NCBI RefSeq assembly: GCF_963921235.1 | Contig: NC_086107.1 | Coordinates: forward strand, 106,518,001-106,582,000 | DNA length: 64,000 bases | From: Mobula hypostoma | Lineage: Eukaryota | Direction: 5' to 3' | In this document: positions 16,598-45,447 of the stretch, piece after piece | How the letters are laid out: each line of letters starts with the position of its first letter | Position numbering within the stretch: the first letter of the stretch is position 1 | The notes under the pieces: generated by a model | What the model was told of the DNA's origin: nothing | Databases searched by the model: none | Seen by the model: only the letters and a program-made list of their open reading frames with translations | Position numbers and translations under genes: made by a program

Positions 16598-16677
16598 TAC
16601 GGGTTCCCAACCTGGGATCCATGGACCCCTTGCTTAATGGTATTGGTCCATAGCATAAAAAAGGTTGGGAACCCCTG
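16598..16677. mobile_element. 80-bp hAT-type MITE
   Basis: Terminal inverted repeats (TIRs) GGGTTCCCAACC / GGTTGGGAACCCCTG; 8-bp TSD ACCTAAAG / ATCTAAAG. Related copies at about 26930-26982 and 39023-39103. Confidence 0.8.
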
Positions 16678-17787: not shown

Positions 17788-17853
17788 CTGTGCAGTCAAG
17801 GTCGTCACAGTGTTTCTTGATTGGCTGCCAGCTGTTGTGGCACATTTGAAAAT
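17788..17853 (-). CDS. Candidate 66-nt in-frame cassette exon of the epsin gene (IFKCATTAGSQSRNTVTTLTAQ)
   Basis: Acceptor atttttttccttacccatctag|, donor CAG|GTAGGA, 22 codons with no stop, phase 0/0 matching the preceding exon. No recognisable homology. Confidence 0.35.
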
Positions 17854-20324: not shown

Positions 20325-20437
20325 CTGTTCCGCCTCTTCCCGACTCATGGCCAGTGCCAACTGTAGCTGCAGCTCCTCTTCACCGCTGGTCTGAGGCCGT
20401 GTCTGCTCCAGCTCAGAGGAGATCTTCGGAGAAGTAG
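20325..20437 (-). CDS. EPN2: Epsin third coding exon containing the first ubiquitin-interacting motif (UIM)
   Basis: Acceptor gtttctctgctcacag|, phase 1 continues as STSPKISSELEQTRPQTSGEEELQLQLALAMSREEAEQ (UIM pattern EEELQLQLALAMS). Donor CAG|GTACCA at 20324; 113 nt, ends in phase 0. Confidence 0.92.
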
Positions 20438-21474
20438 CTGTGAGCAGAGAAACAAGCAACAGACAAGCAGCGTCATTGTGAGGACAGTCCAGTTTCTACA
20501 CTTGGGTAGTTACACTATCCAAGCTTCTCACCTGCAACTACAGGGCACGGTGCCAATTCGATCACAAAGAAAGGTTGCAAATTTCTGAACAATCATTTTA
20601 AACACTTCCATTAGATCAACCCTCTAATGCAATAAGGAATTCCACACCGTTTATACAGTCTTTTTTCATCATTTAATTCTTTAAACTCAGATAGATGCCA
20701 CTATCCAGATGTGAAGGCAAACTGGTGTATCCCTCAACAACAGTATATCAACAATGTCAACAATGAATTCTGCACTGAATAAGATGTCAATTTTAACCTC
20801 TTTAGAGGTACAACCGGTGAGATAAAAATTACTGTTTCTAATTATTGTGTGCCTTACTTTCTTAGTTGCCTAATAATGCTACATTGAGATATTTAAAAGT
20901 GGGCAAGAAAGAGTGAAAAGTGTACCATGGCTATTACTTGGCAAGGTAGTGTAGTGGGTCAGCGTGTTCCACACTATCAAGAAAGCTCAACACCTCTGCT
21001 TTCTGAAGTTTAAGAGAGCTGGACTATCATGACCTTCTACAGATGCGCAGTTGAGAGCATCTTCACATGCTGCATCGCTGCACAGTATGGTAACTGCACT
21101 GCACCGGACAGGAAGGCTCTATAATGGGTAGTCAAAACTGCGCAATGCATCACTGACACTAGCCTATCTGCCATCAATGACGTATACATAGAAAGGTGCC
21201 GGAAAAAGGCCTGCAATATCATGAAGGATCCCACACAGCCTGCCCATGGACTGTTTGTCCCACTCCCAGCATGGAGGAGGCTACACCAGGGCCACCACAT
21301 TCAAAACCAGTTACCTTCCCCAAGCAGTAAGGCTGATCAACACCTCCACCCAGTGACCACCCCTCCACACCCCCACCGCCATTACTTTTATTTCCTCTCA
21401 GAATCACCTTATGTACGGACACTCCTGTACCTAGCATTACTTTATGGTCATATGATCAGTCTAGTATATAACAG

Positions 21475-22110
21475 CTGTAGTGGAGCGTGTATCAAGCTTC
21501 AATTTCCTTGGTGTCCACATTTCTGAGGATCTCAGCTGGTCCCTGATCTCCTCCATCCTGAACAAAAAGGCGCAACAGCAGAGCATGAAGAAAGCTCACC
21601 TCTGTCCCAGGATACTGGTGGACTTTTACTGCTGTACCATTGAGAGCATACTCACCAACTGCATCTCAGTGTGTTATGGCAATTGTCCCGTATCGGATCG
21701 CAAAGCACTCCAGCGTGTGGTGAAAACTGCCCAGCGGATTATCGGCACCCTGGGCGGGGCGAAAAGCATTATCAAGGATGCATCTCACCCTAACCATGGA
21801 TTTTTTACTGTCTTCCCATCCGGTAGGCACTACAGGAGCCTCTGCTCCCGTACCAGCAGGCACAGGAAGAGCTTCTTCCCTGAGGCTGTGACCCTGCTGA
21901 ACCTCACATCACAGCGCTAATCAGTATTGCACCCATATTGTACTGTCTCAGTACTTTTATATTTGTGTGCTGTAGCACTTACTTTTTATTCACAGTTATT
22001 TTGTAAATAACACTATTCTTTGCATTTCTGGTCAGATGCTAACTGCATTTCATTGGCTTTGTATCTGTACTCGGCACAATGACAATAAAGTTGAATCTAA
22101 TCTAATCTAA
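21475..22110 (+). mobile_element. Rex1/Babar-like LINE 3' fragment with (TCTAA)n tail. Similar fragments at about 18360-18790, 20960-21470, 30235-31205, 31680-32300, 42230-43030, 47215-47950
   Basis: ERVSSFNFLGVHISEDLSW...IESILTNCISV...IIKDASHP...PSGRHYRS...SFFPEAVTLLN; tail aataaagttgaatctaatctaatctaa. Confidence 0.85.
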
Positions 22111-22654
22111 TTATTGTGCTTTTTATTATTATTTTCCTTATCTCATTGTGTTTTTTTGTGTTGCATCAGATCCGGAGTAACAGTTATTTCATTCTCCTTT
22201 AAACTTGTGTACTAGAAAAGACATTAAACAATCTTGAATTGCTTTACAGCACCAGTGATCACCAATGGAGCTTCAATTCCCACTGCAGTCTGTAAGGACT
22301 TTGTGTGTTCTCCCTGTGAGGCGCTTTGGTTTTCTCCCACATTCCAAATACGTACGGGTTAGTGAGTTGTGAGCATGTTATGTTGGTGCCAGATGAGTGG
22401 CGACATTTGCGGGCTGCCCCCAGCACAATCCCCGCTGACTGGTTGACACAAAACGACGCATTTCACTGTGTGTTTCGATGTTCATGTGACAAATAAAGTT
22501 GATCTTTATCTCTAGGCTAGTGGTTGTTCTGCACTGTGTTAATATGAAAAGAATTATAATATCAATGAGAGTTTAGAAAAGGGTTAAAACATTACCCATA
22601 ACAACTCTCTAATATATCCACACACACACAAAAACACAAGGCTTGGATACTTAC

Positions 22655-22891
22655 AGCCATGGTAGGAAGCAGGTGACCCACCCACTTTGCTGCACTCATC
22701 TGATTGGCTAGTAGACAGGTTTGGGTGGCTGGAACCCCGGCCGAACATAATCTGGTTGTTGCTGCCTACTCCTGTTGTCACACTTGACATCCGCTCTTTT
22801 GTCTTCAGTGCATGACTGCGCTCGACTCGAAGCCTCTCGTCATCCTTCAGTAGGGCGATGAGCTGTTTTGATTTCTCCCTCACATTGACAC
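22655..22891 (-). CDS. EPN2: Epsin second coding exon (end of ENTH plus linker)
   Basis: Acceptor ttctctcaaccag|, phase 1 joins to give GVNVREKSKQLIALLKDDERLRVERSHALKTKERM...FGRGSSHPNLSTSQSDECSKVGGSPASYHG. Donor T|GTAAGT at 22654; 237 nt. Confidence 0.93.
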
Positions 22892-25800
22892 CTGGTTGAG
22901 AGAATCGATTGGAAAAGTTCACTGAAACTAAGCAATGAGTAGAGTTAAAGGAAGTTATGTCTGAATAATCTGCTGGATTTCTCGGAGAATGTGATTAGGA
23001 GCATAGAGAATGGAGAACTATCAGATGTTATGTATTTAGATGGATTGACAACATTGCCTGTTTATTTATTTCTTTATTTATCGATACAGCAAGATAGCAG
23101 GCCCTTCATGCCCCTTGAGGCTGCATTTTCCAATTACACCCATGTGACCAATTAACCTACTAACCCGCATGTCTTTGGAATGTAGGAGGAAACCGGACAC
23201 CTGGAGGAAGCCCACGTGGTCCTGGGTAGAATGCACAAATGGTAGCAGAATTGAACTGGGTTCACCGGCGCAGTAATAGTGTTACGCTAAGCTACTATGC
23301 CACAGGCACAAAATGCTGGAGGAACTCAGCAGGTCAGGCAGCATAATTGGAAATAAGTAAACAGTCAACGTTTCAGGCCGAGACCCTTCTTTGGGACAGG
23401 ATTTGGCCTGAAACATTGACTGTTTACTCTTACATAGATATTGCCTGGCCTGCTGAGTTCATCCGGCATTTTGTGTGTGTTGCTTTGGATTTTCTCTTGT
23501 TTATGATGCTACAGTGCCACCCCAAATTATGGATTATGGAAGCCATCAGATAATGTCCCAAAGCACAGGTTGTTCAGCAATGTTTTCAAGGACATAGAAT
23601 TAGAGCTATTATAAGGATATGGATTGAGAATTAGTTATTGGACAGAAAGCATTCCTTTTAGGCAGCCATACTTCCCATATGCCTTGGTCATATTTATTAT
23701 GCATAAGTGAAAACCTTTAAAGAGAAGAATTCTAGGTACCAAGCAGCATAAGACATCATTAATAACAACATCAGACAAGTAAAAGTAATGGGTTAAAGCA
23801 TTACTGTCCTGGGCGCTGGTGAAAATTGTGGTTTATGACATCATCGTGCATCCGATTCTGCTTTTAAGATACATTTTATGTACTCGACAGTTATTGGTTC
23901 AATTAGCATGTTAAGTTATAGAAGGTGAATGATGCTTCGGTGAAGGATTTGTTGTGTATATTTCAACAGCTCGCAATTTTTGACAGACACCTCTCCATTG
24001 CTCCATCTGAATTTAGTTGTAAAGCATATTTTTTTCTCATTATACCATTATCCTGGGCCTGAAGCTATATTTTTGTTGCTAACTTTCACCTGACTCTTGG
24101 GTCCCTAAATCCTTCCATCTGAAGGGATTTTCTCTCCACATGCCTAGGCCAGCTGGATTCACGGATGGTTACTGATTATTTGGGCGACATCTATTATGAA
24201 CAGCTTCCAGACAGTTGCAGGGTTTCTAAGACATAGGAGCAGAAACGGGTTATTCGGCCCAACAAGTCTGCTCCGCCATCTGATCATAGCAGATTTATCA
24301 GAACCAGAATCAGGTTTAATATCACCAGTATTTGTTGTGATATTTGTTAACTTTGAGTGGGAGTACAATGTAGTGCAAAAACAGAAATAAAAAAGTAGTG
24401 AGGTAGAGTTCATGGTTTCAATGTCTAATCAGAAATCAGATAGCAGAAGGGAAGAAGCTGTTCCAGAATCGCTGAGTATGTGCCTTCAGGTTTCTGCACC
24501 TCCTTCCTAATAGGCACAATGAGAAAATGGCAAGTCCTGGCTGGTGGGCATCCTTAATGATGGATGCCACCTTTTTGCGGCACTGCTCCTTGAAGATGTC
24601 TTGTATAGTACATATATTATCCCTCTTAACCCCATTCTCCCCGTAACCTTTGATGCCCTTATATCAACCTCCATATTAAATATACCCATACCTTGGCCTC
24701 CACAGCCATCTGTAACAATGAACTCTACCCTAAATGATGCATAACAAATATCACGGAACTTAAACAAAACTCTTCCTTTCTTTGCTTCCACATGGTTAAT
24801 ATTCATATTCACTAATGTCAAATAATATTAGAATGACTCTATTTTACTCTTACAAACACTAACTCAAAGCTGCTACAGTCTGTGCAATATTAACCAGCCT
24901 CTTCTTATACCTGTGGTCAAAGGGTTTGTTTCCCACCACTGACATCTGAGCCACAATTCGGATGAGTTTTACTAAGTCTCAAACCACCAAAAGGCTGACT
25001 GCATTTGTGGCATTTAAAGGTTACATACTGGAGTCTTTTAATAGCAGACAGCTGGAGGGTTCAGTCCACTTATTTTGACATTTTTAAAAAAATTATTTGG
25101 CACAAAAAGAGTCTTTGATAGTGTAAATGTAACTTTTTAATGAGCTTTTTAAAATTTGGGTCAAAAGTTCTGAACTGCAACAGCTTTATCTATCAAAAGC
25201 TATCCATGTCAAGGGACGGTAGTGTAGTGGTTAGCACAAGGCTTTACAGTACAGGCGACCTGGGTTCAATTCTTGCTGTTGCCTGTAAGGAGGTTGTATG
25301 TTCTCCCCCATGATTGCGTGTGTTTCCTACGGGTGCTCCGGTTTCCTCCCACAGTCCAAAGTCCTACTGGCTGGCAAGTTAATTGGTCATTGTAAATTGT
25401 CCTGTGATTTGGCTTGGATTAAATTGGGGGACTGCCGGGCACTGTGCCTCGAAGGGCCGATTCTGTGCTGTATCTCCATAAATAACCCATCACAGAACAG
25501 TAATCAGTAAGCTTGAGAAGACATCTTCATCTGAGAGTTTTAACTAAATTCTGAGGCCTCTGTCATTCAGGATTGATCACAAGTGTTGCATCCCAGCTGT
25601 CTAGATACACAAGCCAGGGGCAGTACAATATGGAGAACAAGCTGTTTCTCATGTAACAAGCTGCCCTGCTCCACGCATCTAATGAACCCGAAGGAATGGC
25701 AGAGACCGATACACTTTGGCACCAGAAGCGTCACAGGATTTGCCAGTCAGCGTTGAACTCAACGTAGGACCGCCAGACTAAATTTTATCAGACATATATT

Positions 25801-26207
25801 AGGCAATATTGAATTCCATTGTCTGCTTAAACCCACCTGCCTCGCAACTTTGCGTACTGTGAGCAAAGGGAGCCTCTGCAGGGAATATTATAACCAAAGT
25901 GATATCGCCCCTGTTATACATTCTGAAGTTCTGGCCCAACGAGCCTGTGCTGCCCAATTACACCCAAGTGACCAATTAACCTACTGATCCGTACGTGGGA
26001 GGAAACTGGGGCACCCGGAGGAGGCACGTACAAACTTCTCACAGGCAGCACCAGGAATAAAACCCAGGTCACTGGCCCTATAAAGCATTACACTACCATG
26101 CTGCCCATGGTTTGCTGAAAGGCTTACTAGTTCCTGCAAGGCACTCTCCCACCCATCAAAATCCGTGTGTATTACTTCAACGAAATCACAATTAGATATT
26201 TTATTAC

Positions 26208-26565
26208 CCTGATCCCTTCCATCTCGATCAATGTACTGAAAGTCCTTCAGCGTCTGAATGGCAAAGATGTTTTCCTTGCACTGCTGCGCTACCCGTTCGG
26301 AGCCAGTCTTGATCAGGTAGTCCATCAGCATCAAGGCCTTGTACACGTGACGCCAATTCTTGCCGTGGTCATTGAGGCGCTTCCAGATCATGCTCATAAT
26401 CTCCGTGAAAGCCACCACGTTGTAGGTTAGGTCTGAGATTTCCGCCATCAGCGAGCTCGAGGGTCCCCATGGGTCATTTGATGTAGCCTCCCGTACCTTT
26501 ATCTCTGCTTCAGAATAATTGTTTACAATGTTTTTCATCTGTCTTCGGAGAGATGAGGACGTCAT
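26208..26565 (-). CDS. EPN2: Epsin (EPN2-like) first coding exon, most of the ENTH domain. The whole exon probably spans 26208-26741 including 5'UTR. Orthology (EPN2 vs ENTHD1 locus) is uncertain.
   Basis: Translation MTSSSLRRQMKNIVNNYSEAEIKVREATSNDPWGP...HGKNWRHVYKAL...DFQYIDRDGRDQ is a canonical epsin ENTH. Donor G|GTAAT at 26207 (358 coding nt, phase 1). Upstream acceptor tcttgttttcttgttccag| ends at 26742. Confidence 0.95.
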
Positions 26566-27547
26566 GGTTGACTGCTTTGTTTTCCTTCTGCAGGGCTCCT
26601 CTTAGAAGTCAAGTACTTACAATTTCTGCACAGGAATGTGATCCCTTTTTCAGCCTGACTGAAGCTCCATGCTTCCCGAACAGGCGCTTACTTATCAAAC
26701 TTGTTCCACTGACAGTTCCACCTCTGTCACATATCCAACACCTGGAACAAGAAAACAAGAGATTGAGTCAACATCATACTTCTGTGAATGTTCCTGGGGT
26801 TACTTGAGTTACCGTCACCTTCCTGTCAGCTTGAACCAGTCTGGCCATTCTCCTCTGACATCTCTCATTAACAGAAATGGCACTTACTAAATGTTTCTGT
26901 TTCCACACCATTCTCTGTAAACTCCAGAGCAGGGGTTCCCCACACCCTTTTAATGCCATGAACCCCAGGTTGGGAACCTCTGCCTGTTGTGTGTGACAAT
27001 CCCAGGAGATCAGCAGTTTCTGAGATTTTCAAACCACCCTGTCTGGCACCAACGGTCATTCCAGGGTCAAAGCAACTGAGATCACATTTTGTCCCCCATT
27101 CTGATGTTTGGTCTGAACAACTGAACCTCTTGATCGCATCTGCATGCTCTTATGCACTGAGTTGCCATAGTGGCTGTGGACGCCGAGTCTTTATGTATAT
27201 TTAAGGCAGGGGTTGATTCTTGATTGGTCAGGGCATGAAGGGTTACGGGGAGAAGGCAGGAGGTTGGGGCTGAGAGGCAAAAATGGATCCGCAATGATGG
27301 AATGGCGGAGCAGACTCTATGGGCATAATTCTGCTCCAATATCTTATGGTTTTATGGAGTTGCTGCCACATGATTGGCTAGTAAGATAATTGTATTAACG
27401 AGCAGGTGTACAGATTTACCTAATAAAGTGGCCACTGAATGTAGTTTGGAAAGCAATTCACTGTCTTTATCTAGAGTAGCACAATCCTCTATTCTGCAGA
27501 AAGACAGTGAATTGGGAATAGTCTATTTTATTGAAACTACGAGACCT

Positions 27548-27790
27548 GGCTGGTGGCGTAGTGGCATCAGTGCTGGACTTCGGGACGAAAGGTCCTGAGT
27601 TCGAATCCAGCCGGCTCCCTTGCACGCTTTCCATCCGTGCTGGTGATCTCTTTGGAAACTCACCCTGCAGAAGGCAATGGCAAACCACTGCTGTAACTTG
27701 CCTCATATGCAGTTCCCCACTACGTCAAAGAGGCATGAAGGGAAATGGAGGCGAACCGGAGAAACTCCGAATGCGATGTACCTTTCCTAT
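27548..27790 (+). mobile_element. tRNA-derived SINE with RTE-like tail; a related head occurs at about 60288-60660
   Basis: A box TGGCGTAGTGG, B box GTTCGAATCC, then GAAGGCAATGGCAAACCACT. Confidence 0.75.
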
Positions 27791-29140
27791 CGAAACCACA
27801 ATAAATTTGATACGACTAAGTTCTAAAAGGTCAGGGGGCTTTCCAAATATAACACGCTCAAATTAACATTTAATTATCAATTTTTATTGAAGGCCTGGTG
27901 AAGTTATTCCACTCACAGTTGGCTTAAGTACGCACTTTCACTTTTTAAACCAATTGCAAAGTACGATGACAATGGATTAAAATATAAATCACAATTCCTG
28001 CTATTTATACCAAACACATTCTTGTCTTGTGCTTCCATCTAACAAAGAATTTCAGAAAAGCTACACTGACAGTGCCAAAGACCCTTCCCACCCTTCCTGC
28101 AATCTCTCTGACCTCCTGCCATCAGGCAGAAGGTACTACAGCATAAGAACTGGTACTGTCAGGCTGGGTAGCAGCTTCCTGCAGACTGTTCGGCTTCTCA
28201 CCACCCTGCTGCCATCCAGCACACATGTACACCCTGTCTGAATGCCCTGCCCACCCCCTCTCCCCCAACTCACCCTGCACTGGTCACTCATCTTTTATTG
28301 CTGCTGTTTCACAGATTTATACAACTGCTTTCTTTATTAGAATAGTGCCAGTAACATTATACTGATTTTATCGTCTTACAGAAGCAAGCACTTCACGAGA
28401 ATCTGCCAATCTTCAGCCCATGTCACTCAGGGATAGAACTGCATTTTCTTGCCTTGAAGTGCACGATGACCTATATTCTATCTCATGTGTTGCAACATTC
28501 CAGATAACATCTGCTTTACCACAGGCACCACCACAGGACATTATTTTTAGTTGCCAAGACAGGCGCATATCTGTTACCATACTTGAAAAATAATATTTGC
28601 AGCATTAGGGAGAAAATACAAGGGTGTGGGATGAATTCAAAAGCTCCATTAGAGAAATGGCTCAGGCAAATTTGCCTTATGCTAAGCGACTTAGTTCTGG
28701 GCTGTGGCATTTTGTAAATACCGATACAAATTGAAGTTAAGTTGGAGTTTAAGATTCACTAGGCATTATTCTGTAATCAGCAATTACAATTACCTAGTTC
28801 AGCAGCAAGGAATAGAATTCCAACCAGCTAACATTAGAGCAGGATTTCCATCATTTCCACCAAGCCAAAATGTTCAGTTACAACAGATGGAATGTTGGCG
28901 CCAAGATGGTGGACATATGGTGAGCCTTATTGCCAAGTTCAGTCAATAGATGAGTTAAAAGGAAGGAGATTCACTTTGCAAAGCTTCAACGTTAAATGAT
29001 TTTTTCGAAAAAGTAAATGATTTTTGAAAGCAAATACCAATCTAATTTTGCACTGATGAATATTTCAGTCAGACTCTGTATAATAGCAACTGACATGCAG
29101 ACTGATAGCTTCAGTTCCTTTACCAAGTCATAGGGTTGTA

Positions 29141-29700
29141 CACTGAGTGGCCACTTCATTAGATACAGGCGTATACCTAATAAAGTGGCCGCAGCTGTGC
29201 TCTTCTGCTGCTGGAGCCCACCCACTTCAAGGTTCGACATATTGTGCGTTCAGAGATGCTTTTCTGCACGCCACTGTTGTAACGTGTAGTTATCTGATTT
29301 ACTGCCTCCTTCCAGTCAGCTTGAACCTGTCTGGCCATTCTCCTCTGGCCTCTCCCATTAACAAGGCGTTTTCACCCTCAGACGTCTTACTCACTGGATG
29401 TTTTTTTGTTTCTTGCACCATTCTCTGTAAACTCTAGAGACTGCTGTGTGTGAAAATCCCAGGAGATTAGCAGTTTCTGAGATAGTCAAACCAGCCGCTC
29501 TGGCACCAACAATCATTCTACAGTCAAAATCACTTAGATCACATTTCTTCCCCATTCTGATATCTGGTCTGAACAACAACTGAACCTCTTGACCATGTCT
29601 GCAGGCTTTTATGCAATTGAGATGCTGCCATGTGATTGGCTGATTAAATATTTGCATTAACGAGGTGTACGGGTATACCTGTTAAAGTGGACACTGAGAG
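29141..29700 (-). mobile_element. Non-autonomous Tc1-like transposon; a second, interrupted copy at about 26790-27443
   Basis: TA|CACTGAGTGGCCACTT left end with a degenerate matching right end; transposase HTH remnant MGKKCDLSDFDCRMIVGARAAGLTISETANLLGFSHTAVSRVYREW. Confidence 0.85.
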
Positions 29701-32700: not shown

Positions 32701-32879
32701 AGATGACTGAGTTGACAATTTTCTGCAGCTTATTTCCATCCTGTGTGGTAGCCCCCCCCCCATCATACCAGTTTTGTTTTGTATTATTCAAAACGATCAC
32801 ATTTTGTTTTCTATTATTATGTATTGCATTGTACTGCCGCCAAATACAATAAATTTCCCGACAAATGTCGGTGATGTTA

Positions 32880-33342: not shown

Positions 33343-33837
33343 ATGTTAAACCTGATTCTGATTCAATAATTGTTCTGCAATCAACCAACTCCACCAAATG
33401 GATAACTCATCTGACCATCTACCTTTTGTTTCTGGACATTACCAATATAGAATTACCTGCAGTTTCCCTGCATTGAGCCACAGTAGTCCAACCATTAATT
33501 TACTGGTGATAGTTAATCCAACACCAAGCAGTATAGAGGTAACCTGTTCATTCCTTTTACTCATCACTATCAAGTAATGAAACCCACAGCTTTGCTCACC
33601 TGAACTCAATCACACACTCACTGATTGTTTGAATTCCTATGATGCTTCCAAACCTTCACCAAGTGCCACACGGGATCTGAATGTATCGCTGGCACATTTC
33701 CCCTCACTGGGTAACCAAGTCCGCCAGCTTTGGCTGAAGTGGCAAAGACAACAAAGTGGCCTGCTATGCAACAGCAGATCTTGGGACAACAGTAGAGCAG
33801 CCTTTTGCACAAGGGTGCAGGAGTGTGCCGGCCCTCA

Positions 33838-34352
33838 AGGCTGATTTATACTTGTGCATCAAATGGACACCGTAGGTACGGTGTAGCCGCGAACCCTATG
33901 CAGAGCCTACATGGATCCCTACGCCGTAGCCTGATGCGCACCTCTCCCAAAATGTAACTATGTGTTGCGGCAACGCAGACCGCAACAACTGTGATTGGTC
34001 CGCCTGGTAGCATCGCATTTCATCCTACGCTGCAATAGCTTCCCATTGGGTGACTGAAGGGCAGGGAAGGAACTCTGGCTGCAATGCTTTCCATAAAGCT
34101 TTACAGACCTCCAAAATTACGGAGGGCACATTTCGTTTTTACGAAAAAAGACGCTCGCTTTAGACTTGTTTACCCCGAGAAAGACTACCATGACCACAAA
34201 GCCTTGCACGGGCAGGTGTGTGCGCATGCGCGATGTGCCCGAATTGCAGAGCGACGCAGACACACCAACACACAAGTATAAATGCTCACAACGTGCGTCG
34301 GTCACTTGCGTAGGTTACGGCATCGATTTAACGCAGAAGTATATATCAGCCT
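33838..34352. mobile_element. PIF/Harbinger-like MITE (515 bp), CpG-rich
   Basis: TIRs AGGCTGATTTATACTT / AAGTATATATCAGCCT; 3-bp TSD TCA at 33835-33837 and 34353-34355. Confidence 0.8.
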
Positions 34353-37092
34353 TCAGCCTGATCTTAATAAAACATACATTATGTGGAGCAACAAGGTTGG
34401 GAAATTTTAAAAATCCTTACAAGAGAAGAACAATAAAGATTCAAGAAGCAACAATATAACAGATATAATGACAAAAATGTTCTTCTATAAGAATAATGAA
34501 GTAAAATACAGGTAAATGTTGGGCCTGTTGTGGACCGAAACGTTAACCTGCAGTTGAAGGTGAAGAAATGAGTAATGTTAACCACAGGACATAGAATGGT
34601 ACAGGCTCTTCAGCCCATGATATTGTGCTGACCTTTAAACCTACAGCAAGATCTATCTAACTCTTCCTGGCCACATACCTCTCCATTTTCATTTCATCCA
34701 TTTGCTGGGCTAAGAATCTCTTAAATGTACCTAATGTATTTGCCTCTACCACCACCCCTGGTATGGCATTCCATGCTCGCACCACTGTAAAAATCTCATC
34801 TCTGACAAGCACCCCCCCCCACACTTTCCTCCAATCACGTTAAACAGAATTCCTCTGGTATTGGCCATTACTATCTTGGGAGCACTGACTGTCCACTCTA
34901 CCTGTTTTAAATAAATATTCTGCTTGGCAGAGGAAGGAGGCCAATGCTGTGATTAGGAGTGAAATATTAAGTGGGATAAGATTATAAAAATAGATAGATC
35001 TCATGGGTCAGAGGATGTTTAAAGAAGTATGGGAGGAATATTGAGAAGCTTGGCTGATTGTTTTCAATCCTTCTTGGCATCAGAAAACTGGAGAACTATG
35101 AACCTTGTGCCACTGTTTAGAAAAGGAGGAGGGGTTAAACAGAGTATTTTATTTATTGAGATACGTGAAACGGGATCTTCTGGCACTTTGAGCTGCACTA
35201 CCCATCAATTTCTGATTTAGTCCTCGCCTAATCACGGGACAATTTACAATGACCAATTAACCTACCAACCACTATGTCTTTGGACTGTGGGAGGAAGCCA
35301 GAACACCCAGAGGAAACACACGTGACCACCAGGAGAACGTACAAACTCCTTACAGACAGTGGTGGGAATTGAACCTGAGTCACTGGTACAGGAAAGAGCT
35401 ACAAACTATTTTAACTTTGGCAACGGGTAAATTATTGGAATAAATTCTCAGGGCTTGCAAACCATGAATTTGCAATGGTATAGATTAATCAAGGGCCATA
35501 TGAAAGGAAATTGACTGTGATTTTGAAAAAGTAACAAGGAGAATTTGAGAGCAATGTTATTGATGTAGTCTCACTGAATTTTAGCAAGGTTTCTGACAAG
35601 ATATTACGTCAGACTGATCAAAAAAGTTAGTCCATGGGATCCAAGAAAGTGCCAAATCAGATTCTAAATTTGTTCTGCCGCATGAAGCAAAGAGTAATGC
35701 ATGACAGGTGTTTTGTGACTGGAAAGCAGTTAGCACAGGTTCAGTACCAAGCCCTTGGTCTGAATGTTTTAAACATAGACTTAAGAAAGTGTTAGAGGAA
35801 AGGTTTACACTGCAGAACAATATTGATGGGTGGATTAGTTGTGCAGAAAAGCAAATGGAATTTACTCCATAGAAGTGTGAGGTAATGATTTGGGAGATGC
35901 AAAAAGGCTAGGGAATACATGGGTATTGAGTGTTATGGAGGAACAGACTGCATTCAACAGAACCTTTAAGGAGACATGATGGCTTGATAAGGTGGCTAAC
36001 AAGACATTCAGAATGTTAAGAGTTAGAGTACTAGCTAAGGCACAAGAAAAGGATAAATTAGTGGAGGGTGCAGGGGAAATTTATGACGATGGTGCTACAA
36101 CTGTAAATTTTTTTGCAATAAGGAAAGATTAGGTATACCAAGATTGTTTACCTTGTAAAGGTGTGGCTGAAGGGAGTTATGAATTATGTATAAAGTTATG
36201 ATGAAGTCAGACAGAATAAATAGGAAAAACCTCTTTCCCCTCAAAAAAAGGTTAAAATCCATAGGACAGAAATATAACATAATAGGCACGATTGGAAGTG
36301 AGATGACAATTTTGATTTTCACATAGAGGCCGGTATTGGTTTGGAACTCACCTGAAAGGCTGGACAGGCAAAAACTCTTAACATATTTTAAAGAGCACTT
36401 GGTTGTGTACCTACTGGGTTACCAATCTTATATAGATTAGGCTGAGTAGCTATTTTGGACTGTCATGAACCTCTTGCTGCATCACAAATTTACCTGGTTC
36501 CGAAAGTGGAGTACCATGAACGGTTCTGGCCATTTTAGGAAGGCTGTGATGGCCTTGGAGATGAGTGCAAATAAGATTTACTGGAATGGTGTGAACAAAA
36601 AAATAACTGGAAGAGCTTAATGGGTCAAACATCATCTGTGAAGTCAAGGGGACGGTTGACATTTTGGGAAATAACTCCAAATGCTTTATCAGCGCCAGAA
36701 TGCATGGCAATACTTGCCGGCTGCCCCCGGCACATCCTTGAGTGTGCTGGTTGTTAATGCAAGCGACGCACTTCACTGTAGATTTTTGAAATGTATATGT
36801 GATAAATAAATCCGAACCTAGATCAGGAACCTCTTTACTGGAACAGAGGATGAAGGATTTCAGCAACAGAGTTTGACCACAGAAGATGGAAGTGTTCCCA
36901 TTGGGGAAAAAGATTGACAGGGAAAAGATATGGGCAGGGCATCGAGAGATCTGTTTTTGGACACAATGGTGAAGATCTGGCACTTGGTGCCAATGAAGAT
37001 GGAGAAAACAATTTTCATACTAGAAGGAAATTAACATGCAGAAATTTGGAATAATTATACAGGAAAATGGGCCTGATGGGAATACTCTAAAG

Positions 37093-39014
37093 CAGCCTTT
37101 CTCAACCATTTTGCCCTGAAGGAACCCTTGAAATAATTTTCAAGTCTCAGGGAACCCCTGCGTAAAAATTATTACATCTACAGGTCACAGTATGTGAGTG
37201 TGATCAGTAAATAGGAGATGTAATAATCCAAAAATAATTGTTAATGCTCTGTTGATTACAGAATTAATTTTTAGTCAACCTTTCTTGAAAAATACAAGTA
37301 GTTAAGTTTAGTTTATCTTTCTTGAAATTAATCTCCTTTCCCTTTCATAAATTTAAAAAAATCATTAGGCAAACAATAAATTTTTGTTAAATAACAAAAC
37401 TTAAATAACAAACTTAAGCCAAAATGGGAGTTAATTTTTCTAAAGGTAGGATTGGTAGATTTAATTTAAATAAAGGTTGTAAATTGATTTTAATTAATGC
37501 TATTTACAACATGAACATTTATTGATAATGTTGAAAAATAAAGTTACTAAATACTATAAGCCAAAGCAACACAGTTCCTCCAAGATAAGACTTTTTTGTT
37601 TCCACATATGAAGACAAAACATTACATAAATCTTGGCCTTTGCTTGTTTCGGGCAGCTCTTTGCAACAGAAAAAGTTTTCTCAAATTTCACCATCATCTA
37701 CAAGCCTTACAAATGCTACAACATGATACTTATTGTGAAATCTGTTGACTTATCAACCAGGATAGAGAAGCTGTTGTTTTTCAGTTTACCACACAAAACC
37801 TCTTCAGCATCATGTGACGTGTCATCAATCCGTCAACTTATCATGCTGTTTGAGAGTGCTACATCTTGTCCTAGCATTTTACCCATTATAATTTTACATG
37901 CTGGCATTATGAGGTTCTTTTCTGGGTAATAAGTTCTGCTACTAAATAACTTGCTTCCCGAGTCCTTTTACTAACTGTGACTTTAGTAACAAAAGCTTTA
38001 CTCTGTTATTTTGAGATTCTAATAGCTGTCAATTATAATCAGCAATTTTGTGTGCCATTTGGCTGTGATTTATAGTTAAGTGTCTCTTCTATTTTGCTGA
38101 AACCATTGCTGTATTTTCTAAGTTGTTTGCCACAGACCAGGTATAATGGAATAGGACAATTTGGATCACCAGTCCATCTAAAACCCATCGATAAGTCGCT
38201 TTCATTGTAAAGACAGACTTTTTGTGTGCCTGTTGCTGCACCAGTGCAGTGAAATGACTCAGACGATTGTACTGTCAGACATGTCTGTAAAACACAGGGT
38301 TTAATAAAAATATAAAAAAGAACGGTATAATAAATAACTAAATAAGAAAACTGCAAAAAATACAAAAGCTTCACACTACAATTCACTTCTAACCCACACA
38401 ATCCACCTTTTGCAATGTTTACAACAGCAAAGTGGCAGGGCAGTAGCTGAGTCATGGTGTGTAAAAATTCCTTCTTTAGAATGAAAATTTCCCTCCAATT
38501 TTCTGTCAAGTTTGTTCACTCCCCATAAGTCAGTTGAGGGCATGTAAGGGGAAGCTGGGGGAGGTAATTCAGGAGGGAGACGCTGATATCACAGCCCAAG
38601 TTGGGCGCGTCCATTCAATGCTCAGGAAACACATTTTACACTCATCAGCCTACCATCCTCCCTTCCGTGCAATACAGCACTCACCAATTATCAGCCTGCT
38701 ATCCTCCCCTCTGTGTAATACAGCACTCACCAATTATCAGCCTACCGTCCTCTCCTTCCTGCAACGCAGCGCTCACCAATTATCAATGGCCTCCCCTATC
38801 TTGCGTCAAAAACTGTGAACGGACTCAAGCGAATAAACATGGTCCTACTGTGCACTGCCAAACAGGGCAGGGAAACCTCTAACGAGATTGCTATCAGGGC
38901 TGCTTGGTCACCGCCCACCACTGTGAGCGCTAGCGTCGTGCGCTGCACGGAGTTCAAAAATGTTATTTTTTTTTTAATCACGACCTCTTGCGGAACCCCG
39001 GTTGAGAAACCCTG
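37093..39014 (-). mobile_element. hAT (Charlie-like) DNA transposon, internally deleted
   Basis: TIRs CAGCCTTTCTCAACC / GGTTGAGAAACCCTG; perfect 8-bp TSD CTCTAAAG (37085-37092, 39015-39022); BED-finger remnant YNESDLSMGFRWTGDPNCPIPLYLVCGKQL and FSILVDKSTD; subterminal tandem repeats near 38640-38790. Confidence 0.92.
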
Positions 39015-39022
39015 CTCTAAAG

Positions 39023-39103
39023 CATGGCTTCCCAACCTTTTTCATACCATGGACTCGCTATCATTAACCGAGCAGTCCCTGAACCCTAGATCGGGATCTC
39101 CTG
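39023..39103. mobile_element. Small hAT MITE directly abutting the Charlie-like element
   Basis: Homologous to 16598-16677 in reverse; flanked by CTCTAAAG and CTCTGAAG. Confidence 0.7.
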
Positions 39104-40749
39104 CTCTGAAGGGAACAGACCCAGACTGGACAGGTCAGATTTCCCCGTGCCATTATAATTCAATACTGACAACTCAGAATCCCTCCTGCATTATGATGAT
39201 ATAAACCAGGGATTAACTCAGCCTTTTCTGCAGCTCACCTTTCACAAAACGTTCCTTTCCTGTTCAAGCCCTTTAACTTTCCAGCTGCGGATTACGCTGG
39301 GGTCAGCTGACGGATGCTGGCATCTCTTTTATGCAGCTCTGCTCACCTGTTACAAGGAGGATATGGGGGCTTTGAAGAGGGTACAAAAGAGATTCACCAG
39401 GATGCCGCCCAAATTAGAAGGTATGAACTATATGAACTTGAATAAACGTTGTCATAGGCTGAGGGTGAAAGGTGAAATATTTAAGGGGAACGACTTTACT
39501 CAGAGGGTGGTGCAAATGAAGAGTGAGCTGTCAGCAGAAGTGGTAGATGTGGTTTCAATTGTCACTGATAGAGAAGTTAGAATAGGTACTTAGAGGGAAG
39601 GGGTATGGAAGGATAAAGTCAGGGTGCAGATAGATGGGACTAGGCAGACCAGGCTGCATTTCTCTATCACTCTATGACATCAGTTCTGATAAAATAATTC
39701 TTCAACATAAGGCACAGGAGCAGATTAGGCCATTCAGCCAATCAAGTCTGCTCTGCCATTCAATCACAGCTGACTTATTTTCCCCCTCAACCACGTTCTC
39801 CTTCCTTCTTCCTGTAACCACTGATATAAGCGGTCAGCCTCTTTAAAAAAAAGCTTTTTCTTTCCATTCAGAGAGAGACACACACAGAAACCTTTGGAAC
39901 TCACTATCTCAGCGGGTAGTGGACACTGAGAATATTCATGTATAAGTTTGTTGGGTCACTGGTAAATCTCATCTTATAGAAAAAAAGCAGAAAAGTGGAG
40001 TTGAGCACAAGGTAAAAATCAGTCATGATCATATTAACTTGCACAGTAGATTCAAAGCACCAAATAACCTCCTCCTTCTTAAGGCTGATTGACTCTTTCC
40101 CCATGCACCAAACTCATTTCACCACCCCCCACGCATTATCTTCACCCCTGTGCCAATTCAAGCACGGCTCAGATAACAATCTAAAGATTATTAATGATGT
40201 GGCTCGCTCGTTACATTGCTCTCAGTTTCCTCATATTCTCTTAGGTGAACCTATTAGCTCCGTGTGCATCTAAAGTGGGCAGCTCTCCTTCACACCTCCG
40301 GGTGATACTCAGTACAGCCTTTGGAGCATCACTGTCAGCTGCGGAGAACACTGGATCTATGCCTTATTCATCACCCCTTTCGTTTCAAGTGCACAGGTCA
40401 GATTGCCTAGTCTTAGATCAGATTCTGGACCTGTCTGAAACAAACTGCAGGGCTGTGGGAACCCGTTGGCCATCACTCAAACCCAGGACCAGGTCAAGCA
40501 CGGCAGAAACCAGTGGCTTCTTACTAAACAGGGCAACTCTCTAATCTGCAGCATCTTAAAGACATAATAATTTTCACGGCCCGGGCCTCAGGGGCTCCTC
40601 TCTCCAAATAGGATCAGTGACACATTTATAAGGGGCTTTAAATGATTAATCCCCACCTCTCCTCTTGCTATCTTTTATCTCCTATAACCCCCTTAATGTC
40701 CCCAGAACCTCAATATCAAGAGCACATTCAATTGAAATGTGGTTTCCTG

Positions 40750-41500
40750 CGCAGTACGTAAATACCAGACGGTGTAATGAACGGACGGAAACAACGGCCT
40801 GGATTTCAGGTGGTCGCCGCCCTTCCTTCCACCTCCGGGCAGCCAACATCAACAGGAAAACCCGAGGCGATGGTTGGGGGCCTACGGCCGGAGAGCCGCT
40901 GCTCCATATTTGCTATGGCATCGACAGTGACAGATCCCAACCCGGCCGGCTTCTTTTTTTAAATTTACCGGCAGTGAGTCTCAGGCCCACGACCCGTTAT
41001 CCACTCACCACCTTCCCGCTCGATCCCCAGCCTGATTGCCAATCAAAGTCCCGCCCACCACCGGACCGTCCCCGAGACGCTGGGGGGAGGGCCTAAAACC
41101 TTACGGCCCAATAGTAGAGCCGCTGCTGCGCCCATTCTTGAGTGACATTCACCGTTACCAATAAACAGCAGGGTCTTAGTTCTATTGACAGCCAGAGAGG
41201 CCAATCGTTCCATTGACAGATCTGTTCCTATGGTGCGAGGAGAACACGGTAAAGTGGGCGGGGTTCTACATAGAACAGAGAAATCTACAGCACATTGCAG
41301 GCCCTTCGGCCCACAATGTTATGCTGACCATGTATCCTACTCTAGAAACTGCCTAGAGTCTCCCTAGCGCATAGCCCTCTATCTTTCTAATGAGTACTTG
41401 TTCAATAGAAATGAAGATCAGGCGCAACACATTCCAGTTGACAGTTATGTTATCCAATCAGTGGCTGGAATGAGCGGATTGACATTTCAGTCAAACAAAT
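40750..41500 (-). promoter_or_regulatory. CpG-rich promoter and probable non-coding first exon of the epsin gene
   Basis: Local CpG enrichment; CCAAT boxes near 41039, 41108, 41158, 41201 and 41454; GC boxes (CCCGCCC near 41050, GGGCGGGG near 41256); minus-strand donor candidates G|GTGAGT at 41008 and C|GTAAGG at 41104. Confidence 0.7.
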
Positions 41501-43971
41501 CTGGTTAATTAGGCTTGAAGATGCCTTCAGTTACAAGAAGGGCATCGGAATGGGGATGTTGGGAACTCTAACACTCCAGCAGGGCAGAAAAAGAATGAGA
41601 TAATTATTGGGATAAGCAATCATTCCATCGAACTAATTCGTGTCACTTTTGCATCATGCCAGAACTCTAGGGGCCAACAATGAATTTGGACCAAATTATA
41701 CATTGGGCAAGAACTTTACATTCCCATGCAATTCTGTTGGTTTTGAAGGAACACATGGAGAACTTTTAAAGGTTTTCATAATGGCAGTCAGTAGAGCTGC
41801 TGCCTCACAGCTGTGCGTTCAATCCGAATCTCTCCTACTCTCTATGCCAAAGTTGAATTTGTACATGTGCACAGGTGCAATGAAAAAATTACTTGCAGCA
41901 ACATCACAAGCAGATAGCAACAAATAAGGAGCATTTGCAAAACAAAAGCCTGAACTAAACATAAATGATAGACACATTTGACAAGAAAGAACTCAGTGTG
42001 TGATAAATGGGTGCCTCGTGTTCCAGAGGAATGATGTTTCGTTTGGTTGCATACATGTACAGTCAGGTGACAATGAAGTTGAATTTGAACAATTAGAATG
42101 AAAAGCTACAAATCCATTTTAGTGCATAGTGTTCCTATACTGACATAGTGATTAGGGTTCTGCAGGTTGCTTCAAGAATGAAGGAAAGCTGTTCTTGAAC
42201 CTGGTGATGTGGGTACTATTGGTTCTGTACCTCCTGTCAAAGTTCAAAGTTCAAAGTACATATACCCCATATACATATGTCACCATATACAACTTTGAGA
42301 TTCATTTTCCTGTGGGCAAATCTATAGATAAATAACTATAACAGGATCAATTAAAGATCAACCAGAGTGCAGAAGACAACAACTGTGTAAATGCGAACAT
42401 AAATAAGTAGCAATAAATAATGAGAACATGAGATAAAGAGTCCTTAAAAGTGAGATCATTGGTTGTGGGAGCATTTCAAAGATGGGGCAAGTCACTGTAG
42501 TTATCCCCTTTTTTTCAAGAGCATGATTGTTGAGGGCTAGTAATTGTTCTTGAACCTGCCGGTATGAGTCCTGAAGCTCTTGTATCTTCTACTTGATGGC
42601 AGCAATGAGAAAAGAGCATGGCCTGGTTGGTGGGGGATCTCTGATAATGGATGCCGCTTTCCTCCGACAGCATTTACAGCAAGAAAGAGTTAGATAGAGC
42701 TCTTAAAGATAGTGGAGTGAAGGGATATGGGGAGAAGGCAGGAAAAGGATACTGATTGTGGATGATCAGCCATGATCACAGTGAATGGTGATGCTGGCTC
42801 GAAGGGCTGAATGGCCTACTCCTACACCTATTGTCTATTGTCTATTTCATGCAGGTGTGCTCAGTGTTTGTGAGGGCTTTACCTGTGATGTACTGGCTGA
42901 ATCCACTACCTTTTGCAGGATTTTCCATTCAAAGGCATTGATGTTTCCATACCAGGCTGTGATACAGGCAGTCAATATACACTCCACGACATGTTTATAG
43001 AAGTTTGTTTAAGTTTTAAATGTCATGCCGAAGTTTTAGATAGCATGGCCTGAATGGCTTTCTCTGCGACGGTGCGGGTTTCCTATGGGTGGGGGCGGGG
43101 GCTGAGGGCTGTGCCCTTATTTCCTGTCATGTCCGAAAGAGGTAGGTAAATTAGCTGCTGTTATATTCTCCTACTTGATGGGGAAGTGGTTAAGGTCTGA
43201 TGGGGCAATTGATGGCAGTGTGGGGAGAATGTAAGAAAACGGATTTCGTGTACAATTAGTGTAGATAGATGCTTAATGATCAGCAAGGATGGTGAGAAAA
43301 AAAATCAAAGTAAATTTATTATCAAACTACATATATATCACCATATACAACCCCAAGATTCATTTCTTGTGGGCATACTCAATAAATCCAAATAGAATAA
43401 TAACCATAATAGCATCAATGAAAGGCTGCACCAATTTAGGTGTTCAACCAATGCAAAAAACAACAAACTGTGCAAATACTAAAGAAATAATACTACTAAT
43501 AATAAAAATAATAAATAAATAAGCAATAAATATTGAGAACATGAGATGTTGAGTCATTGAAAGTGAGTCCATAGGTTGTGGGAACACTGTTGGGGCAAGT
43601 GAAGTTGAGTGTTGGTTGAGGGGTAATAACTGTTCCTGAACCTGGTGGTGTGAGTCCTGAGGCTCCTGTACCTTCTTCCATGAAAAGATCTCTTTCAGAT
43701 CTGCATCTCTAGAAGACTATGATGACTACCCCACAATCATCAGACTCTTGAACAAAAGGGGATAGATAATTCACTCAATGGCCCGTCCATTGAGATGTTC
43801 CCACAACCAATGAACTCTCTCTTTCCCTTTCTCTCTCTCTCTCTCTCGTGAGACAGTGTTTGCTGCTGATTCTTGAGTTGGAAGAACTTGAAGTAAAGCA
43901 ATGCTGCAGACTGTAACATCGTAGCAGTGAGCCGTTGGTCCTTTTCACTGTGGAAGGAGTAATACCTTACT

Positions 43972-43974
43972 CAC

Positions 43975-44021
<47 letters not shown>

Positions 44022-44022
44022 T

Positions 44023-44058
<36 letters not shown>

Positions 44059-44095
44059 TAGATAGAGAGGGAGAGAAAGAGAGAGAGAGAGAGTG
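43972..44095. repeat. Compound microsatellite (TC)n-(TA)n-(GA)n forming an inverted repeat
   Basis: Direct reading; the outer CACTCTCT and AGAGAGTG are also complementary. Confidence 0.95.
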
Positions 44096-44819
44096 GGGAG
44101 GAAGGGGGAGGGAGAGGGTTGATGCTTTGCTGCTGCTTGTGTATACGAGGGGGAGGGGAGGTTTGGGGTTCTAACGTTTTTCTGTCATTCATTCTTTGGG
44201 GTTTTCTTCTGTTTTGTGGATGCTTGTGAAGAGCAAGAATGTCAGGTTGTATATTGTATACATTCTCTGATATTAAATGGAACCATTGACCAGTTGCCGA
44301 GAAAGTGCAGTGCAGGTAGACAATAAGGCGCCAGATCATGACGAGGTGACATGAGGGGTCCCTCACGGCCACTAGGGGGCAGTTCCACACATACTCACCC
44401 AGAGGTCAGTATCAAACCTGGTCTGTTGTGCCATTGCTGCGTCGGTGCAGTGTTCCACCACGACCCCTGTAATTTCATTCCAGGCCCCTAACCACTTTGC
44501 CTTTCATCCTGATTGTATGTCCCTGGTTCTGGACCCTTCTATCAAAGGCGGCAGCCTCCCTTCATCCATTCCGCCGTTACCCTGCATAATTAGAGTTACT
44601 TTCATCAGACCCCCCCCCTTTGCAACCTCCTCTGGATCCAAGGACACTGACCCCAGCTTCCCCAGTCCACCCACACACACGCTTGCAATCAGTGATACAC
44701 CACAGTGTGCATTGTCGCATGTGACAGGAAACAGAATGCACTGAAAACACAGCCTTCTACTACAAAGAAAGCCGGCTTTGAGAAGGAACGCAGATTTCCG
44801 AGTATCAGTGCTCTTGACA

Positions 44820-45120
44820 GTGGACGGAAAGTGTGCTGATTAACAAGGGACAGCCTGCCCTACTGTATATCCACTCTGCCTTGGCTTAGATTATACATTA
44901 GAGGCTTGGAGGCTGGTGCTTTGTTTGTGGGGCCAGCGAATATTGCTGCGACTTGACTCCCCTGTGCTGAAACTCAGCATTTAGATTGTGGTTTTCCTGA
45001 AACACAGGAAGGTATCGAACACAGTTTTCTTTCTTTCTGTATCATCTTTCGACGAATTGCAGCCGTGTTACTCTTACAATCTATACCCGCTGTCTTGTGG
45101 TTTGGGAGCGCTTAGGTATG
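44820..45120 (+). promoter_or_regulatory. Candidate haematopoietic-type promoter or 5'UTR exon of the GRAP2-like gene
   Basis: RUNX TGTGGTT at 44987 and 45096, ETS-type TTTCCTG at 44993 and CAGGAAG at 45005, possible donor AG|GTATGC at 45116, about 250 nt before the ATG. Confidence 0.4.
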
Positions 45121-45369
45121 CAAAGAAACCATCTGGAACCTTCGGTGGAGGCAAGATTGAGATCCCCTGTGTAGTTTCTTTTGCTGCCCCCCTTCTCTGC
45201 CCCTCCGCTCCCCCCCCACCCCACCCACAACACCACTTCCCCTCTGACCCTCTTGCTGTACTAACCGCCCCTCCGGGATCTGGTCTGTCAAAGGACCCTC
45301 CTCCTCGTTTAATGTTTGGAGTCTTTAGGTTTGCCTGAGATCAGAGAGTCTCCTCTGAGGGTGTCTTGA

Positions 45370-45447
45370 ATGGAGGCGATCGCCAAGTATGAGTTCTCTG
45401 GGGCCGGAGAGGACGAGCTGAGTTTCAGAAAGAACGACGTCCTTAAG
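45370..45447 (+). CDS. GRAP2: First coding exon of a GRB2-family SH3-SH2-SH3 adaptor, most similar to GRAP2/GADS (start of the N-terminal SH3)
   Basis: ATG at 45370 gives MEAIAKYEFSGAGEDELSFRKNDVLK (SH3 ALYDF...DELSF motif), 78 nt, donor AAG|GTAGGT. GEDELSF and DVLK match GRAP2 as I recall it. Too short for the ORF track. I found no further exons in the window. Confidence 0.82.

What the first reader, a model, noticed from the sequence alone, without database searches (positions are those of the whole stretch)
20325..45447. Canonical EPN2-like epsin head-to-head with a GRAP2-like gene: possible ancestral form of the ENTHD1 locus
Seen: a canonical epsin (ENTH, linker, UIM) transcribed divergently from a GRB2-family adaptor, with a phase-1 intron inside ENTH at DQ|G (after coding nt 358). 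Known, from memory: in mammals EPN2 neighbours GRAP, while the divergent ENTHD1 is head-to-head with GRAP2; human EPN2 encodes ENTH in one exon, and ENTHD1 has an intron at about this position. Against recalled human N-termini the adaptor exon matches GRAP2 at 17/26, GRB2 at 16/26 and GRAP at 13/26; GRB2 is nearly invariant in vertebrates, so it is unlikely. Inference: this could be the ENTHD1 orthologue still encoding a full UIM-bearing epsin, making ENTHD1 a degenerated fourth epsin paralogue that similarity-based annotation would label epsin-2.
Basis: partly seen in the sequence, partly recalled or inferred. Interest (0 to 1): 0.75.

Follow-up and report, generated by a model that had tools for sequence, protein, structure and literature searches.

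The report
Fourth epsin, likely ancestral ENTHD1
Sharks, rays and chimaeras carry a fourth, full-length epsin gene, which in this ray faces the adaptor gene GRAP2, the spot where humans have the poorly understood gene ENTHD1, so ENTHD1 is likely its decayed descendant.

Summary
Observation confirmed. Four minus-strand epsin exons match RefSeq 'epsin-2-like' of stingrays and devil rays at 258 of 258 residues. The full protein has ENTH, two UIM-type motifs, six DPW and three NPF. The adaptor exon opens a 400-420 aa GRAP2-type protein: its SH2 scores 141 bits against Gads and at most 105 against GRB2, and it has a long linker. The epsin occurs in 22 cartilaginous fishes; five of them also have a separate EPN2. 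In a tree it is sister to all jawed-vertebrate EPN2 (97/99), and a shark-only duplication is rejected (AU p=0.017). A published paralogon table leaves the epsin slot beside GRAP2 empty. Human ENTHD1 and GRAP2 promoters share one restriction fragment. So this is the fourth genome-duplication epsin (about 0.9) and likely the ENTHD1 orthologue (about 0.8). That last step rests on gene position: I obtained no ENTHD1 sequence, and its intron position is only recalled.

The parts
26208..26565 (-). Epsin first coding exon, coding part (residues 1-119, most of ENTH); a candidate splice acceptor puts the exon start at 26741
   Evidence: 100% to P0003
22892..26207 (-). Phase-1 GT-AG intron inside ENTH at DQ|G (after coding nt 358), 3316 nt
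   Evidence: the same intron was seen in 0 of 80 related loci
22655..22891 (-). Epsin second coding exon (end of ENTH plus EPN2-type linker), 237 nt; donor at the same place and phase as in amniote EPN2
20325..20437 (-). Epsin third coding exon with the first UIM-type motif, 113 nt
   Evidence: Pfam UIM 17.8 bits, below cut-off
17788..17853 (-). The next exon lies beyond the left end of the window
40650..41300 (.). CpG-rich stretch (observed/expected 0.76, GC 54%) with four CCAAT boxes in 41039-41205 and GC boxes; candidate promoter, with a candidate minus-strand splice donor at 41009|41008 for a non-coding first exon of the epsin (inferred, no RNA evidence)
45370..45447 (+). First coding exon of GRAP2 (Gads), 26 residues of the N-terminal SH3; candidate acceptor at 45328; later exons lie beyond 64000

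Best explanation
This is the 5' half of a fourth, full-length epsin gene of cartilaginous fishes, an ancient sister of EPN2 that faces GRAP2, and it is likely the orthologue from which ENTHD1 of bony vertebrates decayed. Shown: the exons, the motif set, the GRAP2-type partner, the separate EPN2 in relatives, and the duplication before the shark/bony-fish split. Inferred: an epsin-GRB2-family gene pair was copied in the second genome duplication to give EPN2-GRAP and this gene-GRAP2. This copy gained the DQ|G intron. Cartilaginous fishes kept it as a working clathrin adaptor, predicted to bind PI(4,5)P2 and bend membrane through ENTH, capture ubiquitinated cargo through two UIMs, and bind AP2, clathrin and EH-domain proteins through DPW, clathrin-box and NPF motifs (motif roles from established epsin biology, recalled). 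In bony vertebrates the tail would have been lost or overwritten, leaving ENTHD1.
For: Tree of 42 proteins, 577 columns: this clade 100/100, all EPN2 including shark and bony 100/98, the two together 97/99. A clade of shark EPN2 plus this gene is rejected, AU p=0.0166. Tail identity: 34% to ray EPN2 and 36% to ostrich EPN2, against 54% between ray and ostrich EPN2. Cartilaginous fishes also have named epsin-1 and epsin-3, so four epsins in all. Adaptor: SH2 region 140.7 bits and gap-free against Gads, at most 105 bits for GRB2 SH2 constructs, about 190 residues between SH2 and the last SH3 where GRB2 has under ten. Epsin and adaptor records share a contig length in 3 of 3 rays checked, with near-consecutive accessions in 2 of 3. 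PMC8040251 table S1 places GRAP2 in quad A, GRAP and EPN2 in B, GRB2 and EPN3 in C, EPN1 in D, with the epsin A slot empty; its text pairs A with B, as my tree does. Human ENTHD1 and GRAP2 promoters lie on one HindIII fragment (10.1101/2020.12.15.422932). ENTHD1 intron 2 is at chr22:39.874 Mb and GRAP2 at 39.901 Mb, and a T>C Ile-to-Val change puts ENTHD1 on the minus strand. No second ENTH exon lies between the two genes in the window. The tail search gave 23 cartilaginous-fish clusters at 309-812 bits, then a drop to 130 bits or less for the other 97 of 120 rows. The DQ|G intron looks derived: 79 of 80 loci read through it.
Against: No ENTHD1 sequence came back from any search, so ENTHD1 is in none of my trees and no shared residue was tested. 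Its intron position is recalled only. PMC3473312 treats ENTHD1 as a separate subfamily (ENTHC), not as an epsin 1-3 type protein. Neighbours beyond GRAP2 were not seen. GRAP itself was not available for comparison, and RefSeq names the Hypanus adaptor 'GRB2-related adapter protein-like' without the 2. A lamprey protein (P0305) already has an ENTH domain with no UIM or NPF, so a decayed epsin lineage could be older than jawed vertebrates. The tail search scored only 8000 word-sharing candidates of 334-1064 aa, so it is weak evidence of absence in bony vertebrates. Function is inferred from motifs; nothing was assayed and no RNA reads were laid.
Confidence: 0.8

Rival explanations
1. It is the fourth genome-duplication epsin, but ENTHD1 is a different gene (an older decayed paralogue or a later duplicate) that took the place beside GRAP2 after this gene was lost in bony vertebrates.
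For: ENTHD1 was never placed in a tree here. A tail-less ENTH protein exists in lamprey (P0305) and could not be placed (branch length 2.68). PMC3473312 files ENTHD1 as its own subfamily.
Against: It needs a loss and a replacement at the same promoter in the same orientation. No second ENTH exon lies in the window. No shark protein named ENTHD1 appeared, though those lists were truncated.
Confidence: 0.11
2. It is a duplicate of EPN2 that arose within cartilaginous fishes and came to lie beside GRAP2.
For: ENTH and linker are very close to EPN2 (86-89% over 160 residues). No bony-vertebrate orthologue of the tail was found.
Against: AU p=0.0166 against a shark-only clade. EPN2 of sharks and bony vertebrates group at 100/98 without it. 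The position is exactly the empty paralogon slot.
Confidence: 0.05
3. It is the ordinary EPN2-GRAP locus of a ray.
For: Best bony-vertebrate hits are all EPN2. EPN2 and GRAP are also neighbours. GRAP could not be compared directly.
Against: A separate, EPN2-grouping gene on a different contig in basking shark, sawfish, Mobula hypostoma and Mustelus, and a separate protein in Callorhinchus. The adaptor has the Gads SH2 and a long linker; GRAP has no such linker (recalled).
Confidence: 0.02

Closest known systems
EPN2 (epsin-2) of jawed vertebrates
   Same: ENTH 86-89% identical, same linker, same donor after the linker, two UIM-type motifs, DPW repeats, clathrin box, three NPF; sister clade; neighbour of a GRB2-family adaptor.
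   Different: Extra phase-1 intron in ENTH, extra 22-residue exon, tail only 34-36% identical, partner is GRAP2 not GRAP, different contig from EPN2 in the four species where both contig lengths are known.
ENTHD1 (ENTD1; 'ENTHC' subfamily of PMC3473312)
   Same: Promoter next to GRAP2, running away from it (GRAP2's plus strand is recalled). Recalled, not tested: its first coding exon ends at c.349 in phase 1 and its N-terminus is three residues shorter, which would put the intron at the same codon.
   Different: Function largely unknown. Recalled, not tested: ENTHD1 has a fast-evolving ENTH and no UIM, DPW or NPF tail, whereas this gene keeps all of them and its ENTH exon is 97-100% identical across cartilaginous fishes.
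GRAP2 / Gads
   Same: SH3-SH2-long linker-SH3; SH2 region about 63 of 99 residues identical to the Gads structure 1r1p with no gap (counted by eye).
   Different: The ray linker holds a tandem five-residue Met-Pro-Glu repeat of variable copy number; protein 400-420 aa.
EPN1 and EPN3
   Same: Same epsin plan; ENTH aligns without gaps to the epsin-1 structure 1h0a.
   Different: Separate clades with their own cartilaginous-fish members. Note that 'Epsin 4' is already used for CLINT1/epsinR, so that name is not free.

Membership tests
Endocytic epsins (EPN1-3 type) | N-terminal ENTH with helix 0 and lipid-binding residues | tested here: met
   Pfam ENTH 184.9 bits; gap-free to 1h0a; R7, R8, K11, R25, R63, K69, H73 invariant in 16 of 16 aligned orthologues (their role is recalled)
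Endocytic epsins (EPN1-3 type) | Ubiquitin-interacting motifs | tested here: met
   First motif identical to that of EPN2 in the alignment; second found by pattern. Pfam score 17.8 is under the cut-off of 21
Endocytic epsins (EPN1-3 type) | DPW repeats, clathrin box, three C-terminal NPF | tested here: met
   5-6 DPW, one clathrin box and 3 NPF in 6 of 7 orthologues counted; the chimaera record is cut short with 1 NPF. These motifs come from RefSeq proteins, outside the window
Endocytic epsins (EPN1-3 type) | Works in clathrin-mediated endocytosis | not testable with these tools
   Inferred from motifs only
EPN2 orthologue | Groups inside the EPN2 clade | tested here: not met
   Sister to it, not inside
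EPN2 orthologue | ENTH and linker in one exon | tested here: not met
   Split at DQ|G here; continuous in locus L001 and in 7 of 11 Logan EPN2-type frames that run through DQG and break only after the linker. Shark EPN2 exon structure was not seen
EPN2 orthologue | Neighbour is GRAP | tested here: not met
   Neighbour is GRAP2-type
ENTHD1 orthologue | Head-to-head with GRAP2 | tested here: met
   Window anatomy; human arrangement
ENTHD1 orthologue | Shared phase-1 intron at DQ|G | not testable with these tools
   Present here; ENTHD1 side recalled only; supplement and text searches found no exon table
ENTHD1 orthologue | Groups with ENTHD1 in a tree | not testable with these tools
   No ENTHD1 sequence among the listed hits
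ENTHD1 orthologue | Wider neighbours of the human 22q13 locus | not testable with these tools
   No genome held; I recognised no other host gene in the window
GRAP2 / Gads | SH2 closer to Gads than to GRB2 | tested here: met
   140.7 versus at most 104.7 bits
GRAP2 / Gads | Long proline-rich linker between SH2 and C-terminal SH3 | tested here: met
   About 190-210 residues
GRAP2 / Gads | Groups with GRAP2 rather than GRAP in a tree | not tested

The most novel reading that the evidence does not exclude
The epsin quartet from the two vertebrate genome duplications is complete in sharks and rays. The fourth member shares a promoter region with the lymphocyte adaptor Gads and is an immune-cell epsin. 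Bony vertebrates stripped its ubiquitin, AP2, clathrin and EH-binding tail to make ENTHD1, an ENTH-only competitor for the same membrane sites, and a lamprey epsin decayed the same way on its own. The ray gene is then a living ancestral form against which ENTHD1's function can be tested directly.
Probability: 0.25. Interest if true: 0.72.

Novelty: new member of a known kind. Interest (0 to 1): 0.52.

Why it matters
ENTHD1 is a human gene of largely unknown function (PMC4747093) that a family-wide study filed as its own vertebrate subfamily (PMC3473312), and a curated paralogon table lists only three epsins (PMC8040251). If this reading holds, ENTHD1 is the missing fourth epsin, and cartilaginous fishes keep its intact form under strong constraint. 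That gives an ancestral and a derived version of one gene, so one can ask which endocytic functions ENTHD1 lost and what it kept. It also corrects a database label in 22 species. The mechanism itself is ordinary epsin biology, and orthology databases that I could not search may already hold the link.

Tried and rejected
No whole genome was held, so flanking synteny was not seen. Further adaptor exons in 45448-64000: none found by motif scan or by tblastn with the full proteins. RNA: no RNA holder listed; eight runs with small shares, 0.09-0.20, none laid, so the non-coding first exons and promoter sharing stay untested. Getting an ENTHD1 sequence: none among the 120 of 5361 hits listed, the 150 of 4777 (only 20 of these were looked up by name), the 120 of 602, the PDB or the ESM Atlas rows. 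Candidates for a bony-vertebrate transitional form (P0172, P0167, P0217, P0244, P0174, P0229) are named epsin-3 or teleost epsin-2-like, and those in a tree fell with EPN3 or on unsupported long branches. ENTHD1 exon positions: no hit in 13 of 29 readable supplements of PMC6131170 (three more too large), none useful in PMC6178360, no paper for the RefSeq accession. Prior statements of the link: none seen in the listings, and no ENTHD1 hit in the supplements of PMC8040251 (cut when stored), PMC4504502 (one file), PMC10208646 (four files) or PMC3473312 (five files). Subscription papers, bioRxiv supplements, Ensembl Compara and OHNOLOGS were not searchable. The ENTH-only FastTree was too poorly supported to use. 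The 26-residue exon alone cannot tell GRAP2 from GRB2; the full protein does. No structure or complex job was sent, since the fold is known.
Full report
What is in the window. The introns between them are GT-AG, phases 1, 1, 0, and the frame is open. The first intron falls inside ENTH at DQ|G, as reported. The 258 residues are identical to RefSeq 'epsin-2-like' of Hemitrygon akajei, Hypanus sabinus and two Mobula species, so the window is from a stingray or devil ray. On the plus strand, 45370-45447 encodes 26 residues of an SH3 with a GT donor. The two ATGs point away from each other, 18.8 kb apart. Between them lies a CpG-rich stretch at 40650-41300 with four CCAAT boxes in about 165 bases, against 2.3 per kb across the window. 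It is a candidate promoter only; no RNA was laid. The rest of both genes lies outside the window.

The adaptor is GRAP2. The exon matches GRB2 at 16 of 26 residues, which does not decide. A search with the exon returned 2 proteins from 4 candidates, of 400 and 415 aa, and a cluster look-up added a 420 aa H. akajei protein; two of the three match the exon at 26 of 26. Their SH2 region scores 140.7 bits, gap-free, against the Gads structure 1r1p and at most 104.7 against GRB2 SH2 constructs. About 190-210 residues separate SH2 from the last SH3, where GRB2 has under ten. GRAP was not available for comparison; that it lacks a linker is recalled. In three rays the epsin and adaptor records share a contig length, and in two the accessions are near-consecutive.

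The epsin is not EPN2. The first exon's best hits were 23 cartilaginous-fish clusters at 97-100% among the top 24 rows, followed by EPN2 at 92-94% (120 of 5361 listed). With cluster members this covers 22 species of rays, skates, sharks and a chimaera. Basking shark, sawfish, Mobula hypostoma and Mustelus each have a separate 'epsin-2' on a contig of different length, and Callorhinchus has both proteins. I did not show EPN2 for the window's own genome. Named epsin-1 and epsin-3 also occur in cartilaginous fishes. In an IQ-TREE mixture-model tree of 42 proteins that I chose from the hits (577 of 1326 columns), this clade has support 100/100, EPN2 of sharks and bony vertebrates 100/98, and the two together 97/99. 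Holding shark EPN2 and this gene together costs 19.7 log-likelihood units, AU p=0.0166. The tree holds three long branches, none in these two clades; seven outgroup rows and three vertebrate rows were unnamed and labelled by me from their sequence. The tail is 34% identical to ray EPN2, while ray and ostrich EPN2 share 54%. The duplication is therefore older than the shark/bony-fish split.

It fills an empty slot. In the supplement of PMC8040251 (rows seen, file cut when stored), paralogon 4 has GRAP2 in quad A, GRAP and EPN2 in B, GRB2 and EPN3 in C and EPN1 in D. The epsin cell in A is empty and ENTHD1 is not listed. Passages of that paper pair A with B as the later split, which is the sister relation in my tree. 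That study used only bony vertebrates.

The link to ENTHD1. Passages of 10.1101/2020.12.15.422932 state that the human ENTHD1 and GRAP2 promoters are baited by one HindIII fragment. A supplement row of PMC11805910 puts ENTHD1 intron 2 at chr22:39.874 Mb, 27 kb from GRAP2 at 39.901 Mb. A table in PMC4747093 lists T>C as Ile493Val, which implies the minus strand. So ENTHD1 sits where this gene sits, and the window holds no second ENTH exon. A search with the tail found 23 cartilaginous-fish clusters at 309-812 bits and then nothing above 130 bits, nearly all EPN2 (120 of 602 listed, 8000 candidates scored). No bony vertebrate showed a full-length orthologue, though this search is weak for distant tails. 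What I could not do matters: no call returned an ENTHD1 sequence, so it is in no tree, and its intron at c.349 in phase 1, with a start three residues shorter, is recalled and untested.

The intron would be a good marker. Of 80 metagenome loci encoding an epsin ENTH (best 80 of 268), 79 read through DQG. The exception, L014, has a phase-0 donor one base upstream. Many loci are transcripts or near-copies: 38 look genomic by a rough rule and collapse to 12 types, 11 reading through; 16 show a separate downstream UIM exon and belong to 2 types. One is an amniote-type EPN2 with ENTH and linker in one exon (L001), as in 7 of 11 Logan EPN2-type frames. Pufferfish and sauropsid EPN3-type frames also read through. 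The intron is thus likely a gain on this branch, and finding it in ENTHD1 would be strong evidence. Teleost EPN2 frames break further on in the same exon, so gains here are not unique.

How it most likely works. The full protein has ENTH (184.9 bits; gap-free to 1h0a), two UIM-type motifs, six DPW, a clathrin box and three NPF, the same set as EPN2. The Pfam UIM score of the first motif is below cut-off, but the motif is identical to that of EPN2. Of the first 236 positions nearly all are invariant across 16 orthologues. From established epsin biology (recalled), it would bind PI(4,5)P2, bend membrane, capture ubiquitinated cargo and link to AP2, clathrin and EH proteins. This is inferred; nothing was assayed.

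Results against. PMC3473312 (passages, section 5, supplements without a hit) files human ENTD1 as a separate vertebrate subfamily of unknown function; it used no cartilaginous fish in the species list I saw. A lamprey 'epsin-2-like' of 830 aa has ENTH and a trace of the linker but no UIM or NPF and could not be placed. It may be a parallel decay, or a sign that a tail-less lineage is old, which feeds the first rival.

Novelty. The proteins are in RefSeq as 'epsin-2-like'. I saw no statement of a fourth epsin or of ENTHD1's origin in the search listings, in passages of PMC4824007, or in the supplements of PMC4504502 and PMC10208646. Orthology databases and subscription papers were not searchable and may hold the link; a database alias tying ENTHD1 to epsin-2 is recalled. 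This scan had no note with ENTHD1 or GRAP2, and none by sequence.

Verdict. A real, conserved fourth epsin (about 0.9), likely the intact form of ENTHD1 (about 0.8). A new member of a known kind; interest 0.52.

Noticed in passing
P0305 (Petromyzon marinus XP_032816805.1): 830 aa lamprey 'epsin-2-like' with ENTH, a trace of the EPN2-type linker and 2 DPW but no UIM or NPF: a decayed epsin in a jawless fish, unplaced in the tree.
   Followed up: partly
P0121, P0122, P0132 (ray GRAP2 linker): The linker holds a tandem five-residue Met-Pro-Glu repeat whose copy number differs among the three rays.
   Followed up: no
window 17788-17853 (-): The 22-residue fourth exon sits where epsin-1 and chimaera epsin-3 rows carry an extra UIM in the alignment; it may be a decayed middle UIM exon.
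   Followed up: no
P0250, P0264 (Logan, teleost-type EPN2): Frames read through DQG but break near residue 144, suggesting another intron gain in this exon.
   Followed up: partly
L014:1851-1880: An unnamed invertebrate-type epsin has a phase-0 donor after DQ, one base from the ray's phase-1 site.
   Followed up: partly
window 40650-41300: CpG-rich stretch with four CCAAT boxes and GC boxes, and a candidate minus-strand donor at 41009|41008.
   Followed up: partly
window 10864-13417 (+): Broken frames that look by eye like a LINE endonuclease and reverse transcriptase, inside the long epsin intron.
   Followed up: no
window 54900-55470 and 56660-57900: Long TATC and GT simple repeats in the first GRAP2 coding intron.
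   Followed up: no
window 1-17787 and 45448-64000: Both genes have introns over 17.7 kb and 18.5 kb that run off the window ends.
   Followed up: yes
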